This document shows, piece after piece, positions 5,742-29,369 of a stretch of DNA of 45,125 nucleotides (positions are counted from its first letter, which is position 1; the number at the start of each line of letters is the position of its first letter). Origin of the DNA: a virus (taxonomy: Duplodnaviria > Heunggongvirae > Uroviricota > Caudoviricetes); IMG/VR virus record IMGVR_UViG_2703718832_000003. One strand, 5' to 3'. A model generated the notes under the pieces. The model searched no databases, was not told the origin of the DNA, and saw only the letters and a program-made list of their open reading frames with translations. A program made the position numbers and the translations under genes.

Positions 5742-5881
5742 GTGAGATCCTCATTTTTGGGTGTTAGAATCCCCGGACCATTGATAGCGCCCATTGGGTT
5801 AACTTTGGTTTTAATGTTGTTTCCGGTGTAACTTTGGTCGGTGAGGCCGGACATGGCGGGCCCACTTCGGTGGGCTTTCGC

Positions 5882-6653: not shown

Positions 6654-6817
6654 GATTTCCTCTTGGCCTTATCGCGGCGAACGGAACGGTTAATACAAGA
6701 CTTCAACGCATTTATTCAGTGTTTCAATGGGCGGTGGATGGCCGCCGGTTGTCATAAATGGGCAGACTCGAAAATCTGCCTATGTATGGCCGATAAAAAA
6801 CCCGCCGTTGCGGGTCT

Positions 6818-7138
6818 TCAGAAATAGTCTTTGTGGTCTTGCATCGCTCGCTCGAGGATTACCTTTGCATCTTCAAAGCTGGCAGATTCAAAAGCCTCTC
6901 TTATGGCCTTAGCCAGGCAAGTCGCATCGCTTTCATAGTCATCAGCTCTGCTTTCCCAGTTTGATGCCTCTTCTTCAGCCTCATAAAGGCGATCGCCATA
7001 CTCGCACTCGAGTTCCTGGCGCACTTCATCACGAAGCTTCTCCTTGATGATTTCGGAGGCTTCTTCAATCGGCATTGTTTCCAGAATCGTCTCTGGCTGA
7101 TGAGTGCCGTATTTCAGTGAGATGTCAGTAGCAAACAT
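6818..7138 (-). CDS. Acidic hypothetical protein (about 106 aa from the RBS-supported start; track start at 7255 is the alternative)
   Basis: In-frame ATG at 7136-7138 preceded by a strong GGAGG RBS; product is Glu/Asp-rich. The longer 145-aa version from 7255 has no obvious RBS but is preceded by the repeated 17-mer hairpin. Confidence 0.4.
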   Translation of the reverse strand: MFATDISLKYGTHQPETILETMPIEEASEIIKEKLRDEVRQELECEYGDRLYEAEEEASNWESRADDYESDATCLAKAIREAFESASFEDAKVILERAMQDHKDYF

Positions 7139-7302
7139 GCAACCTCCAAAAAAATGCCCGCGCGCTGGCGGGCCAAGAAGACTTTTCCAATCCAACCAGA
7201 ACAGGATCATCGTCTCCTGTGTGGTTGAGATGGCAGTATTACCATCACCAAGCATCGGCGTCCGGTGCTTGAGGCTGGCGCTGTCGTTACCCGCTGATGC
7301 GG

Positions 7303-7491
7303 TTATGTCTCATCGACGCATGGAAGTGATTTCCAGTCGATATCGTTTTTTGCCGAATCCCACAGGCCTTTCTTTTTGTACTTTTCTGAGCATGGAATGC
7401 AGATGTTGTAAGGCCTGCCAACCATGTTTACAGATATTCTCTGCATCTCTTCAGATGCCAGAAAGTACCCACAGAATTGACACTTGTGCAT
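7303..7491 (-). CDS. Small Cys-rich (zinc-finger-like) protein
   Basis: 62-aa ORF MHKCQFCGY...CIPCSEKY with CxxC...CxxC; GGAGAG RBS upstream; first gene downstream of the putative PL region. Confidence 0.45.
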   Translation of the reverse strand: MHKCQFCGYFLASEEMQRISVNMVGRPYNICIPCSEKYKKKGLWDSAKNDIDWKSLPCVDET

Positions 7492-7910
7492 ACGTACTCT
7501 CCACTTAGTTACCCGCTGATGCGGGAGAAATGCTTTGGCGATGTGGTAGGTGGGAGACCCATTTCGACCCGATTCGGCCTACTTATCTTCGGCAATAGCT
7601 CCTCGGGCCTCGCCGCTTTACGTGCGACATATTCCCGTCCATGAACCCTTCACCACATCCCATAACATTCCCTGTATTGGTCAGCGCCAACTCCCTGCCA
7701 GTGTTGCCCGTTCTCACGCCGTTCTCGCTCTCGCGCGGGGATACTCTCTCACCGACCGGATCGCACCCGGTGATACAGCACGTTTACGTGTAGGGGTCTT
7801 AACAGGTCATTGACGCTGTAAATCTGCATGTTGTTAAAAAGCAGGCGACTTGCTGTCCGCCGCTGGCTAACTTCGCTCAGCTGTCGATGTTTCGTTTCGA
7901 TGGATTAAAG

Positions 7911-7949
7911 ATAACCTTAGTTATGAGTGATGGCAATAACCTAATTTAT
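7911..7949. promoter_or_regulatory. OL-like operator region: two ATAAC-N5-TTAT sites (7911-7924 and 7936-7949)
   Basis: Same 14-bp site architecture and roughly 25-bp centre spacing as the three sites between cI and cro; AT-rich promoter-like sequence around it; positioned like lambda PL/OL. Confidence 0.4.
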
Positions 7950-10630: not shown

Positions 10631-11522
10631 CGTATCCAATTTAGCCGAAGCCAGAGAGGCCAGAAGGCTCCAGAAACCGCGCACGAATGACGGTAAGGGG
10701 TTTGCCTTGCTGCACCGTAAAATTATGGATGTGCCGTTCTACAAGGACGCTGAGGCGGCTCATTTATGGGTTCACCTGCTCCTGCGCGCTAATCATGAAC
10801 AGACACTGGTATCGACTGATGTCGGCGATGTGATCTGCGAGCGCGGAGAGTTCATTACCGGGCGAAACACGCTGGCAATGGAAACGGGTTTGACCGCTGA
10901 TCGCGTTAAATCACTGCTCCGTAAATTCCAGAACCTGGGCATGATCACCACCAAATCGAACAACCGTTTTACTGTTCTAAAAGTGGTCAAATATGACGAA
11001 TATCAGTCAAATTTTTGTCCAGCCGATGTCCAGCCGGTGTCCAGCGCAAACGCAGTTATATCAATGCCTGTGGATGTGGAGTGTCCAGCCGATGTCCAGC
11101 CAGTGTCCACAGATAACAATATATTAAATAACTTACTACCTAACGGTAGTAAGTATGTCGCAAATGACCAGAAACCCGCTGAAGAGAAAAAGTCTCGTTT
11201 GTCATGCGATGAAGTGTGGCAATGCCTGAAAGACGAACTGCCTGAAGCCAGGGGATGGAGATGCCTCACTGATGAGCGACGCAATCTGATCCGCACATTC
11301 TGGGGTAAGGCTAACAAAATTGCCCGCAACCTGGACGGCAAGCCGATGGACATGGACGGTTTCAGAAGTTATCTGCGTTACATCGCTCAGAACTGCCGAT
11401 GGATGCTTGAAGACCGACCAGACCAGAAATACGGGAAGACCTGGCGCCGCATGAAATTCGATAAGTTCCTGACCGAAAAGCTCTACATCGAAGTGCGCGA
11501 GGGGGATCGTGATGACCGCTGA
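10617..11522 (+). CDS. Replication initiation protein (lambda O-like) with embedded origin
   Basis: 301-aa ORF directly upstream of the DnaB-type helicase; contains the iteron array and AT-rich tract within its coding sequence, as lambda O contains ori-lambda. Confidence 0.6.
   Translation: MAVGNVSNLAEAREARRLQKPRTNDGKGFALLHRKIMDVPFYKDAEAAHLWVHLLLRANHEQTLVSTDVGDVICERGEFITGRNTLAMETGLTADRVKSLLRKFQNLGMITTKSNNRFTVLKVVKYDEYQSNFCPADVQPVSSANAVISMPVDVECPADVQPVSTDNNILNNLLPNGSKYVANDQKPAEEKKSRLSCDEVWQCLKDELPEARGWRCLTDERRNLIRTFWGKANKIARNLDGKPMDMDGFRSYLRYIAQNCRWMLEDRPDQKYGKTWRRMKFDKFLTEKLYIEVREGDRDDR
11016..11153. repeat. Phage origin of replication: six TGTCCAGCC iterons plus AT-rich tract and palindrome
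   Basis: Iterons at 11016, 11027, 11038 and 11082, 11093, 11104 (11-bp period); AT-rich ATAACAATATATTAAATAACTTA at 11111-11135; palindrome CTTACTACC-TAA-CGGTAGTAAG at 11132-11153. Confidence 0.55.
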
Positions 11523-28934: not shown

Positions 28935-29369
28935 ATGACAGAAAAAGAAAAGCTGGTCGCCCGCCTGAATGAACTTGGGACCCAGCTTAACCGCGAGGTC
29001 AGTACCAGCGGCACCATTCAGGAACTGACGATGCGTATTGCTGAGCTTGAAGAGGAACTGGATGGCAATGCCGGGTCAGTTGACGGTGAAAACGGCGTGC
29101 AGAATGCTTCCGACAGCACCGACAGCACCGACAGCACCGACAGCACCGACAGCACCGACAACAATGTTGCTAACGTGGCAAAAGTAAAAACGGAATCGGC
29201 CACAACGGGTGACCTGGTATCAGTAGAAACGCTGGCCACCCTGCATATTGACGCTCTGCATGCCACGCGTAACGAGCCGGTATCTATCGTAGAGCCTGGT
29301 GTGATTATCCGCGTATCTGAACAGGATGCCGACGACTTGATCGCAAAGGGGCTGGCTTTCGAAGTCTGA
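28935..29369 (+). CDS. FI: DNA packaging protein FI, carrying a (DST)5 repeat
   Basis: ATG at 28935, in frame with track ORF 28899-29369; MTEKEKLVARLNELGTQLNREV... and ...LHIDALHATRNEPV... parallel lambda FI. Confidence 0.7.
   Translation: MTEKEKLVARLNELGTQLNREVSTSGTIQELTMRIAELEEELDGNAGSVDGENGVQNASDSTDSTDSTDSTDSTDNNVANVAKVKTESATTGDLVSVETLATLHIDALHATRNEPVSIVEPGVIIRVSEQDADDLIAKGLAFEV
29112..29156 (+). repeat. Perfect 9-bp tandem repeat (GACAGCACC x5) encoding Asp-Ser-Thr x5 inside FI
   Basis: Five direct head-to-tail copies read directly in the sequence; in frame. Confidence 0.75.

What the first reader, a model, noticed from the sequence alone, without database searches (positions are those of the whole stretch)
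7279..7530. Repeated 17-nt hairpin motif bracketing the first leftward gene (possible boxB-like RNA element or cassette boundary)
GTTACCCGCTGATGCGG occurs twice on the plus strand (7286-7302 and 7508-7525). On the leftward transcript each copy forms CCCGC-AUCA-GCGGG-UAAC and sits 16-30 nt upstream of a start codon (7491 and 7255). This could be an N-utilisation-like boxB hairpin, a processing or translational-control site, or direct repeats left by insertion of the 62-aa zinc-finger gene as a cassette.
Basis: seen in the sequence. Interest (0 to 1): 0.4.

Follow-up and report, generated by a model that had tools for sequence, protein, structure and literature searches.

The report
Conserved leader hairpin bracketing inserted gene
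The repeated 17-base hairpin is the end-piece of a nearly invariant 45-base junction that closes the early-left leader in phi80-like phages and opens a slot where dozens of unrelated small genes are swapped; here one zinc-ribbon gene was inserted behind it with the hairpin duplicated, and it is not a lambda-style boxB site.

Summary
GTTACCCGCTGATGCGG occurs exactly twice (7286-7302, 7508-7524), more than chance gives.

The boxB reading fails. The "cassette boundary" reading is supported.

On the leftward transcript the 17-mer is a small hairpin. It sits flush against a long, covariation-supported stem that is homologous to the lambda N-leader stem, which I recall is cleaved by RNase III. In most relatives a Shine-Dalgarno sequence and an ATG follow 16 nt later.

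This ~45-nt core is almost invariant in more than 120 viral contigs and 17 Enterobacteriaceae species. DNA on both sides of it is mosaic:
- 30 upstream classes and 41 first-gene clusters occur in 83 combinations among 102 loci.
- The first gene, at lambda N's position, falls into 47 unrelated clusters of unknown function. phi80 "N" is only one of them.
- The slot is closed by the tL1 terminator.

In this window the 62-aa zinc-ribbon gene sits between two copies of the 17-mer. The same 17mer-gene-17mer unit occurs in 11 other contigs, with different leaders and different downstream genes.

What the hairpin does in RNA is inferred only; I suggest it stabilises or insulates the mRNA. No compensatory changes were found. 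At the DNA level, the core most likely acts as a short homology linker for cassette exchange.

The parts
7508..7525 (-). Promoter-proximal copy of the 17-mer (7524-7508 in transcript sense) plus C7525. It forms a 5-bp hairpin CCCGC-AUCA-GCGGG followed by UAAC. This is the native end of the pL leader.
   Evidence: phi80 homology (99.8%) starts exactly at 7508.
7286..7302 (-). Distal, duplicated copy of the 17-mer. It forms a 4-bp hairpin CCGC-AUCA-GCGG and directly abuts the TAA stop codon of the 62-aa ORF.
7303..7491 (-). 62-aa CxxC...CxxC zinc-ribbon ORF (phrog_19863, function unknown). This is the cargo lying between the two copies.
7492..7507 (-). The cargo gene's own translation initiation region, UAAGUGGAGAGUACGU. 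It differs from the family-wide GACAGAGGGUAAGGnn.
7526..7549 (-). 3' strand of the long leader stem (...CCUACCACAUCGCCAAAGCAUUUCU), ending flush against the hairpin.
   Evidence: Folds. Covariation. Homology to the lambda N-leader stem.
7651..7672 (-). 5' strand of the long leader stem (GGGAAUGUUAUGGGAUGUGGUG). Positions 7550-7650, between the two strands, form the variable apical insert.
7831..7861 (-). Hairpin GGCGGACAGCAAGUCGCC followed by a boxA-like UGCUUUUUAACAA. This corresponds to phi80's annotated nutL boxA region.
7908..7936 (-). pL promoter (TTGCCA-17-TATCTT). It corresponds to the -35 and -10 elements annotated in phi80.
7139..7285 (-). Highly conserved non-coding block behind the distal copy. 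It contains an intrinsic terminator (stem 7173-7156 plus T run).
6818..7138 (-). 106-aa acidic ORF, the second cargo of the slot. Its start is ATG 7138, behind a GGAGG.
6655..6816 (-). 3' boundary of the slot. It consists of the tL1-type terminator ACCCGCAACGGCGGGUUUUUU and the conserved spacer ...UUAUGACAACCGGCGGCCAUCCACCGCC..., running up to the kil start.

Best explanation
The 17-mer is the small terminal hairpin of a ~45-nt, almost invariant junction element. In transcript sense the element reads CCAAAGCAUUUCU-CCCGCAUCAGCGGG-UAAC-GACAGAGGGUAAGG. It ends the early-left (pL) leader of phi80-type lambdoid phages of Enterobacteriaceae.

Upstream, the element supplies the 3' strand of a roughly 20-bp stem. 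That stem is homologous to the lambda N-leader stem, which from my own knowledge of the literature is cleaved by RNase III. Downstream, in most relatives, the element supplies the ribosome-binding site of the first gene.

The first-gene position is the one N occupies in lambda. In this family it is a hypervariable accessory-gene slot, closed at its far end by the tL1 terminator and a conserved spacer.

The DNA on both sides of the core is mosaic, so the core is the shared homology through which leader modules and cargo genes are re-assorted. I infer that this happens by short-homology recombination, probably using phage RecT, Red-beta or Erf-type enzymes.

In this window the 62-aa zinc-ribbon gene, with its own ribosome-binding site, was placed immediately behind the hairpin, and exactly the 17 nt were duplicated. 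That is why the hairpin brackets the gene.

Shown: the repeat, the junction structure, the mosaicism, the stem covariation, the homology to lambda and the insertion footprint.

Inferred: that at the RNA level the hairpin serves as a 5'-proximal stabiliser or insulator, keeping the ribosome-binding site accessible after cleavage of the adjacent stem; and that the core is the actual crossover site.
For: Repeat: exact and non-random.

Insertion footprint:
- phi80 has one copy, 16 nt before its first gene, and its homology to the window starts exactly at 7508.
- E. coli G3/10 equals phi80 plus a 222-bp insert (gene plus second 17-mer).
- HK225 has both copies.
- 11 further contigs carry 17mer-ZnF-17mer between at least 5 leaders and at least 5 downstream genes.
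- More distant ZnF homologues are bracketed by repeats of their own local ribosome-binding regions.

Distribution: at least 120 IMG/VR contigs carry the 17-mer. Almost all have the same flanks, and in most the ATG is 16 nt downstream.

Variable slot:
- The following ORF falls into 47 unrelated clusters.
- 46 representatives match 27 different PHROGs, all without a named function. There are no PADLOC hits and only one marginal NCBIfam hit.
- The 3' boundary is a conserved terminator plus spacer, often with the stop codon inside the terminator.

Mosaicism: 102 loci give 83 combinations of 30 upstream classes and 41 downstream clusters.

Long stem:
- 94.9% of cells are paired, against 42-48% in slid controls.
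- 9 pairs carry compensatory changes.
- The stem is present in the window's minimum-free-energy fold, z = -2.4.
- Lambda has GGCTTTGGGGTGTGTG...CACACACCACCAAAGC-TAAC-TGACAGGAG...ATG(N). The phi80 type equals lambda plus a 20-nt insertion that contains the hairpin.

Other:
- The window encodes a RecE-like exonuclease, and relatives encode RecT.
- In silico, the ribosome-binding site is slightly more accessible with the hairpin intact: 0.51, against 0.47 with it deleted and 0.41 with it broken.
Against: - No compensatory double changes occur in the hairpin. Across the IMG/VR scans only 7 left-arm variants were found: 4 are C-to-U changes that keep a G.U pair and 3 are disruptive. Right-arm variants are disruptive. 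The structure is therefore not demonstrated by covariation, and conservation is at the level of sequence.
- The distal copy in this window is not next to a ribosome-binding site. It precedes a 147-nt non-coding block that contains a terminator. The hairpin is therefore not always part of a translation initiation region.
- Junction positions differ between cargos: right after the 17-mer, 7 nt later, or at the ATG. The crossover is not at one fixed point.
- RNase III cleavage and any effect of the hairpin on stability or translation are untested here.
- The accessibility effect is small, and the loci are not independent.
- Sequences for the covariation test were pre-selected for duplex energy, and the upper-stem register was chosen among four options.
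Confidence: 0.8

Rival explanations
1. The hairpin is a boxB-like N-utilisation site. It would be bound by an N-type antiterminator to modify RNA polymerase.
For: It is a small GC-rich hairpin in a pL leader that also carries a boxA. The phi80 record calls the gene behind it 'N'.
Against: - The loop is AUCA (4 nt), whereas the lambda nutL boxB loop is 5 nt (GAAGA). That boxB loops in general are GNRA-like pentaloops is from my own knowledge.
- boxA lies about 300 nt upstream rather than a few nt upstream.
- The protein encoded behind the hairpin differs in 47 ways between phages with the identical hairpin.
- phi80 'N' has no BLASTP or Pfam similarity to lambda N, whereas the lambda N control hits Pfam N36 at 1.5e-26.
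- A third of related leaders carry HK022 put-like RNA instead.
- Prophages with a true arginine-rich N share the leader but lack the hairpin (L125).
Confidence: 0.03
2. The 17-mer is a sequence-specific operator for a trans-acting factor that controls translation or decay of the first gene. The factor could be a host or phage RNA-binding protein, or a small RNA. Its near-invariance would reflect recognition of sequence rather than structure.
For: Loop and flanks (AUCA, GUAAC) are as conserved as the stem. Only a handful of variants were found in the IMG/VR scans, although both neighbours are mosaic.
Against: No candidate factor was identified. Nothing in the slot or its neighbours co-occurs with the hairpin. 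No Rfam family matches. This reading does not exclude the main explanation.
Confidence: 0.15
3. The hairpin is a site-specific recombination site, analogous to an integron attC or attI site. A dedicated recombinase would use it to insert gene cassettes.
For: Cargo genes are bracketed by repeats of a hairpin-forming sequence at the first position behind a promoter, and stacked cassettes occur.
Against: - Junctions fall at different positions relative to the hairpin.
- Some junctions cut through it, for example GCGGGTAAT remnants directly after a terminator.
- The element is a 14-nt perfect hairpin. From my own knowledge, attC sites are far longer imperfect inverted repeats.
- No integron-type integrase gene lies in the conserved neighbourhood, which contains kil, agt/Mog, gamL and recombinase genes.
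- Other cassette junctions use a terminator plus ribosome-binding site with no hairpin.
Confidence: 0.04
4. The second copy is a neutral scar with no function of its own. It would be a by-product of two staggered illegitimate crossovers, and the hairpin's conservation would only reflect recent common descent.
For: In this window the distal copy has lost the outer base pair and is not adjacent to a ribosome-binding site. In L298 both copies have drifted independently.
Against: The single-copy element persists unchanged across 30 upstream classes, 41 downstream clusters and several genera. That is hard to explain without selection or constant use in recombination.
Confidence: 0.3

Closest known systems
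Lambda N-leader RNase III-sensitive stem, between nutL and the N ribosome-binding site
   Same: - Same position in the pL leader.
- Homologous stem sequences: lambda GGCTTTGGGGTGTGTG / CACACACCACCAAAGC against the window's GGGAATGTTATGGGATGTGGTG / CACCTACCACATCGCCAAAGCATTTC.
- The same UAAC-(U)GACAG-purine-rich Shine-Dalgarno arrangement follows.
- PMC5725501 states that the region between nutL and the N Shine-Dalgarno sequence is highly structured.
   Different: - Lambda has no small hairpin. The phi80 type carries a 20-nt insertion (AUUUCU plus CCCGCAUCAGCGGG) that lengthens the stem and adds the hairpin.
- The gene that follows is not N but any of dozens of unrelated ORFs.
- RNase III cleavage in lambda is recalled from the literature (Steege 1987, Kameyama 1991, Wilson 2002; not read here) and is untested for this family.
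Boundary or linker sequences of the modular theory of lambdoid phage evolution (Susskind and Botstein; later lambdoid genome comparisons). This is from my own knowledge.
   Same: It is a short conserved sequence at a gene boundary, flanked by non-homologous modules that occur in many combinations.
   Different: Here the linker is a defined functional RNA segment (stem strand, hairpin and Shine-Dalgarno sequence). It also bounds a single-gene slot rather than a large functional module.
Phage accessory regions, meaning hotspots of variable, often anti-defence, genes (Silas et al., bioRxiv 10.1101/2023.04.06.535777; P2/P4 hotspots, PMC9122126)
   Same: Conserved flanks, highly variable small genes of unknown function, and early expression.
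   Different: - The slot is defined by RNA elements (leader end and terminator) rather than by conserved protein genes.
- It sits at the N position.
- None of the cargo has a demonstrated defence or anti-defence role.
HK022 nun/put arrangement
   Same: In HK022 the N position is held by a non-N accessory gene (nun) and antitermination is RNA-based (own knowledge). 36 of 113 related leaders carry sequences matching HK022 putL and putR.
   Different: HK022 itself lacks the long stem, the 17-mer and the conserved ribosome-binding region. The window's own leader has a boxA-type module, not a put-type one.
boxB of nut sites
   Same: A small GC-rich hairpin in an early leader.
   Different: The loop type, the distance to boxA and the absence of a cognate N protein all differ.

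Membership tests
nut-site boxB | A hairpin whose loop resembles known boxB loops and is recognised by an arginine-rich N peptide. That these loops are GNRA-like pentaloops is my own knowledge; the lambda nutL loop is GAAGA. | tested here: not met
   The loop is the tetraloop AUCA on a 4-5 bp stem.
nut-site boxB | boxA lies a few nucleotides upstream of the hairpin. | tested here: not met
   The only boxA-like sequence is at 7843-7831, about 300 nt upstream.
nut-site boxB | A cognate N-type protein is encoded by the same phage. | tested here: not met
   The first gene is hypervariable, with 47 clusters. phi80 'N' shows no similarity to lambda N. No slot protein matched a Pfam N family.
Lambda-type N-leader RNase III stem | A long double-stranded stem between the nut region and the first-gene Shine-Dalgarno sequence. 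| tested here: met
   A stem of about 20 bp, 7672-7651 paired with 7549-7526, appears in the minimum-free-energy fold. 94.9% of cells are paired and 9 pairs covary across 35 distinct stems.
Lambda-type N-leader RNase III stem | Sequence homology to the lambda stem and its downstream ribosome-binding region. | tested here: met
   TTTGGGGTGTG...CACACCACCAAAGC and TAAC-GACAG are shared with lambda (one search compared).
Lambda-type N-leader RNase III stem | Cleavage by RNase III in vivo or in vitro. | not testable with these tools
   This needs RNA-end mapping in rnc+ and rnc- hosts.
Integron attC/attI cassette site | A long imperfect inverted repeat with a fixed crossover point (own knowledge of attC architecture). 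| tested here: not met
   The element is a 14-nt perfect hairpin. Junctions fall at +0, +7 or about +16 nt, or inside the hairpin.
Integron attC/attI cassette site | An adjacent integron-type tyrosine recombinase gene. | tested here: not met
   Neighbouring genes are kil, agt/Mog, gamL and RecT/Erf/RecE. No integron-type integrase gene lies next to the slot.
Host repetitive extragenic palindromes (REP/BIME) | Hundreds of copies scattered through the host chromosome (own knowledge). | tested here: not met
   The 45-nt core occurs at 118 places in 112 of 5426 E. coli genomes, with a median of 1 per genome that has it. In the viral and genome loci inspected, the 17-mer always sits in the same phage-leader context.
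Phage accessory region (variable-gene hotspot) | Conserved flanks enclosing many unrelated alternative genes among related phages. | tested here: met
   There are 47 first-gene clusters between the conserved core and the conserved terminator and spacer. 27 distinct PHROGs are matched.
Phage accessory region (variable-gene hotspot) | Cargo acts in defence or counter-defence. | tested here: inconclusive
   There are no PADLOC hits and only one marginal NCBIfam hit. Pfam gives only DUF2528, Nmad5, DUF551 and three marginal hits. Function is unknown.

The most novel reading that the evidence does not exclude
The ~45-nt core (stem strand, hairpin and Shine-Dalgarno sequence) together with the tL1 terminator would form a dedicated, integrase-free cassette-exchange system. 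The phage's own single-strand-annealing recombinase would use the short invariant arms to swap or stack promoterless accessory genes at the first-expressed position of the early operon. The hairpin would make expression of any incoming gene independent of context. In effect this would be a recombineering landing pad evolved by the phage, possibly for anti-defence genes.
Probability: 0.2. Interest if true: 0.7.

Novelty: new variant of a known kind. Interest (0 to 1): 0.5.

Why it matters
If this reading is right, four things follow.
- It gives a concrete, sequence-defined example of the linker sequences long postulated to drive modular exchange in lambdoid phages. Here the linker coincides with a functional RNA segment.
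- It shows that in a widespread group of enterobacterial phages, including the laboratory contaminant phi80, the "N position" is not occupied by an antiterminator. It is a freely exchangeable slot for small genes of unknown function that are expressed first after infection or induction. That is the place where counter-defence genes would be expected.
- It flags the phi80 'N' annotation as doubtful.
- It provides dozens of candidate early accessory genes, and a compact leader, hairpin and ribosome-binding module that could be tested as an expression insulator.

Tried and rejected
- Rfam, at gathering and at permissive thresholds: nothing on the hairpin or the leader. The only hit at gathering score is isrB at 5783-5880, which is unrelated.
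- tRNA scan: none in the window. tRNA-like calls occur in the apical inserts of two relatives only, so this is not a general feature.
- Covariation in the hairpin: four targeted IMG/VR scans, each excluding the canonical base at one stem position, found only 7 variants and no compensatory pair. The structure therefore could not be supported in this way.
- GTDB genome scan with the bare 17-mer: 76 hits. I estimate about 69 would be expected by chance from the collection size. Only 17 have the proper flanks, and all 17 are Enterobacteriaceae.
- Terminator reading: rejected, because there is no U tract after the hairpin.
- ORF start at 7255: rejected on substitution pattern.
- HK022 as a direct relative: it has put but neither the stem nor the hairpin.
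- Literature: the phi80 genome paper and the lambda RNase III papers are not held in the library. Statements about them rest on my own knowledge.
- Function of the cargo: the Pfam, PHROG, NCBIfam and PADLOC scans gave no functional names.

Full report
**Observation**

GTTACCCGCTGATGCGG occurs exactly twice in the window, at 7286-7302 and 7508-7524 on the + strand. Neither strand has any further match at up to three mismatches. Shuffles give 0.13 matches on average, and 1 of 100 shuffles reaches two. It is the only perfect dispersed direct repeat of 17 nt or more in the 45 kb.

On the leftward strand it reads CCGCAUCAGCGGGUAAC and brackets the 62-aa ORF 7303-7491(-).
- The promoter-proximal copy is preceded by C. 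It folds into a 5-bp hairpin with an AUCA loop at -9.0 kcal/mol.
- The distal copy is preceded by A. It has 4 bp and folds at -6.6 kcal/mol.

**Context in the window**

The window is a lambdoid phage. The closest cultured relatives are mEp237 and HK225. The leftward strand carries, in order:
- an S24-type repressor gene and a 229-aa insert;
- pL at 7936-7908;
- a hairpin followed by a boxA-like UGCUUUUUAACAA at 7861-7831;
- a roughly 300-nt leader;
- the first 17-mer, the zinc-ribbon ORF and the second 17-mer;
- a 147-nt block with an intrinsic terminator (stem 7173-7156);
- a 106-aa ORF starting at ATG 7138;
- a second terminator and a conserved spacer;
- kil, several small ORFs and a RecE-like gene.

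Among 16 distinct relatives, 7139-7209 has no variable site and 7210-7255 has three, with no codon bias. The ORF from 7138 onward varies mainly at third positions, 33 of 45 variable sites.

**The repeat marks mosaic joints**

- phi80 is 99.8% identical to the window from exactly 7508 to 7908. It has a single 17-mer, 16 nt before its first gene.
- The E. coli G3/10 prophage matches from 7281. It differs from phi80 by a 222-bp insert that consists of the zinc-ribbon gene plus a second 17-mer.
- HK225 has both copies but a different leader.
- A protein-guided scan found 11 more viral contigs with 17mer-gene-17mer. Between them they show at least five different leaders and at least five different downstream genes.
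- More distant homologues of the gene are bracketed by direct repeats of their own local ribosome-binding regions. In mEp213-type phages the gene instead sits 3 nt behind a true lambda-type N gene.

This is the footprint of a gene inserted at a junction with duplication of the junction sequence.

**The junction is a family-wide element**

In transcript sense the conserved unit is ...CCAAAGCAUUUCU-CCCGCAUCAGCGGG-UAAC-GACAGAGGGUAAGGnn-AUG, with the ATG 16 nt after the 17-mer in most loci.

The ORF that follows falls into 47 clusters with no BLASTP similarity to one another. Forty-six representatives match 27 different PHROGs, all without a named function. Pfam gives only DUF2528, Nmad5, DUF551 and three marginal hits. 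PADLOC gives nothing and NCBIfam gives one marginal hit.

phi80 'N' is just one occupant, found in 6 loci. It has no detectable similarity to lambda N, while lambda N itself hits Pfam N36 at 1.5e-26.

The far end of the slot is a conserved intrinsic terminator, phi80 tL1A or one of two alternatives. The stop codon often lies inside this terminator, which is why unrelated proteins end in -AA. A conserved spacer follows, then a semi-variable second gene, a 52-aa ORF, kil, agt/Mog, gamL and a recombinase.

**The upstream side is mosaic too**

The 120 nt before the core fall into about 30 classes. Among 102 loci there are 83 different combinations of 30 upstream classes and 41 downstream clusters. 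One downstream cassette is found behind 11 different leaders. The roughly 45-nt core is therefore the only sequence shared between two freely re-assorting segments.

Stacked cassettes are common. The second unit follows either another 17-mer, a variant hairpin, a different hairpin at the same distance, or simply a terminator plus the same ribosome-binding sequence.

**What lies next to the hairpin**

In most classes the 12-14 nt before the hairpin (CCAAAGCAUUUC) pair with GGAAUGUUUUGG about 60-130 nt upstream. Together with the next 9 bp they form a roughly 20-bp stem around a variable apical insert. In the window this is 7672-7651 paired with 7549-7526, ending flush against the hairpin. The 193-nt fold gives -66.4 kcal/mol, z = -2.4.

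On 35 distinct stems:
- 94.9% of cells are paired, against 42-48% when the partner is slid;
- nine pairs show compensatory changes, in 56 cells;
- no shuffle reaches the covariation score.

Two caveats apply. Sequences were pre-selected by duplex energy, and the register above the bulge was chosen among four options.

**Homology to the lambda N leader**

The lambda N leader reads GGCTTTGGGGTGTGTG...CACACACCACCAAAGC-TAAC-TGACAGGAGAATCCAG-ATG. This stem is homologous to the one here. From my own knowledge (Steege 1987; Kameyama 1991; Wilson 2002; not read here), it is the lambda stem cleaved by RNase III. PMC5725501 confirms that this region is highly structured and lies between nutL and the N Shine-Dalgarno sequence.

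Relative to lambda, the phi80 type has a 20-nt insertion, AUUUCU-CCCGCAUCAGCGGG. It lengthens the stem and adds the hairpin. A prophage with a genuine arginine-rich N gene shares the stem but lacks the hairpin (L125). So do Stx phages that share the leader.

**Is the hairpin a conserved structure?**

This is not demonstrated. Four scans that each excluded the canonical base at one stem position found only seven variants. Four are C-to-U changes that keep a G.U pair, and three are disruptive. Right-arm variants seen elsewhere are disruptive, and no compensatory pair was found. Loop and flanks are as invariant as the stem. The element is thus conserved as a sequence.

An in-silico test on 75 leader-cargo combinations gave slightly higher accessibility of the ribosome-binding site with the hairpin intact: 0.51, against 0.47 when deleted and 0.41 when broken. 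This fits an insulating role but is weak evidence.

**Why it is not boxB**

- The loop type is wrong.
- boxA is about 300 nt away.
- The protein behind the hairpin is not conserved.
- Related leaders carry either a boxA-like sequence (38 of 113) or sequences matching HK022 putL and putR (36 of 113), and never both.

This suggests that antitermination in this family does not rely on an N protein encoded in the slot. That would explain why the N position is free to vary. It is an inference.

**Distribution**

- In one genome per species, only 17 of 76 exact hits have the proper flanks. All 17 are Enterobacteriaceae: Enterobacter, Citrobacter, Pseudocitrobacter, Scandinavium, Kosakonia, Trabulsiella, Pseudescherichia and Escherichia. 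The remaining hits match my estimate of the chance expectation, about 69.
- The 45-nt core is in 112 of 5426 complete E. coli genomes. The ten top hits listed include DH5alpha, DH10B and NEB derivatives, which I know carry phi80-derived DNA.
- Among cultured phages it is in phi80, HK225, four Enterobacter phages and a Klebsiella phage.

**Conclusion**

The 17-mer is the terminal hairpin of a conserved junction element at the end of a lambda-type N leader. It is duplicated here because a zinc-ribbon gene was inserted behind it.

The element bounds a hypervariable first-gene slot and is the shared homology across which leaders and cargos re-assort. The likely mechanism at the DNA level is short-homology exchange, since these phages encode RecE/RecT-, Red- or Erf-type functions.

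The likely RNA role is a 5'-proximal stabiliser or insulator next to an RNase III-type stem. Both roles are inferred and are testable with the experiments listed under next steps.

The general kinds are known: accessory-gene hotspots, N-leader structure and linker sequences. This particular element and slot appear to be undescribed in the literature I could search.

Noticed in passing
window 5783-5880 (+): Rfam isrB (Hfq-binding sRNA, RF01386) match at 38.2 bits against a gathering score of 35. It lies antisense to the leftward operon, between the RecE-like gene and the small upstream ORFs.
   Followed up: no
window 7139-7285 (-): A 147-nt block behind the distal 17-mer is far more conserved than the coding sequence after it: 0 variable sites in 7139-7209 among 16 distinct relatives. 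It contains an intrinsic terminator (stem 7173-7156) immediately before GGAGG-ATG 7138. The annotated 145-aa ORF (HK225_039 type, start 7255) is probably mis-started. There is a weak Trp_leader-like hit.
   Followed up: partly
window 7831-7861 (-): A hairpin is followed by UGCUUUUUAACAA. From my own knowledge this is one mismatch from the rrn boxA consensus, and hairpin-then-boxA is the rrn order. 38 of 113 related leaders carry this boxA. 36 of 113 carry HK022 put-like RNA instead, and none carries both.
   Followed up: partly
L001 (phi80) 2688-2984: The gene annotated 'early transcription antiterminator protein N, similar to lambda N' shows no BLASTP alignment to lambda N (E up to 100) and no Pfam N family hit. 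It is one of 47 alternative occupants of the slot.
   Followed up: yes
related loci, 3' end of the slot (for example L004, L006, L014, L021): Unrelated first-gene proteins end in -AA because their stop codon lies in the loop of the terminator GCCGCC-UAA-CCAGCGGC-U6. The recombination joint is therefore inside the terminator stem.
   Followed up: partly
L044 6974-7053 (-); L069 11356-11426 (+): ARAGORN calls tRNA-like genes (Ile-gat with an atypical anticodon position, and Ser-tga) inside the variable apical insert of the long leader stem. They end 11-13 nt before the 17-mer.
   Followed up: no
L128, L134 and about 40 other loci: Another phage group joins a different pL leader of about 150 nt directly to the same conserved spacer (...UUAUGACAACCGGCGGCCAUCCACCGCC...). 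It has no first-gene slot and no terminator in between.
   Followed up: partly
window 29101-29172; 11005-11109; 18888, 20993, 26171 and 42070: A tandem 9-mer array (CCGACAGCA, about 6 copies), 11-nt iteron-like repeats (TGTCCAGCCGA), and a dispersed family of four similar terminator-like hairpins.
   Followed up: no
L203 (mEp213) 2690-2740; L204 (Louie): In these phages the zinc-ribbon homologue is followed by the hairpin GCCGCAUAGUCGGC plus a U-rich tail. This resembles the 17-mer core CCGCAUCAGCGG, and the microhomology could have guided the original capture. This is speculative.
   Followed up: no
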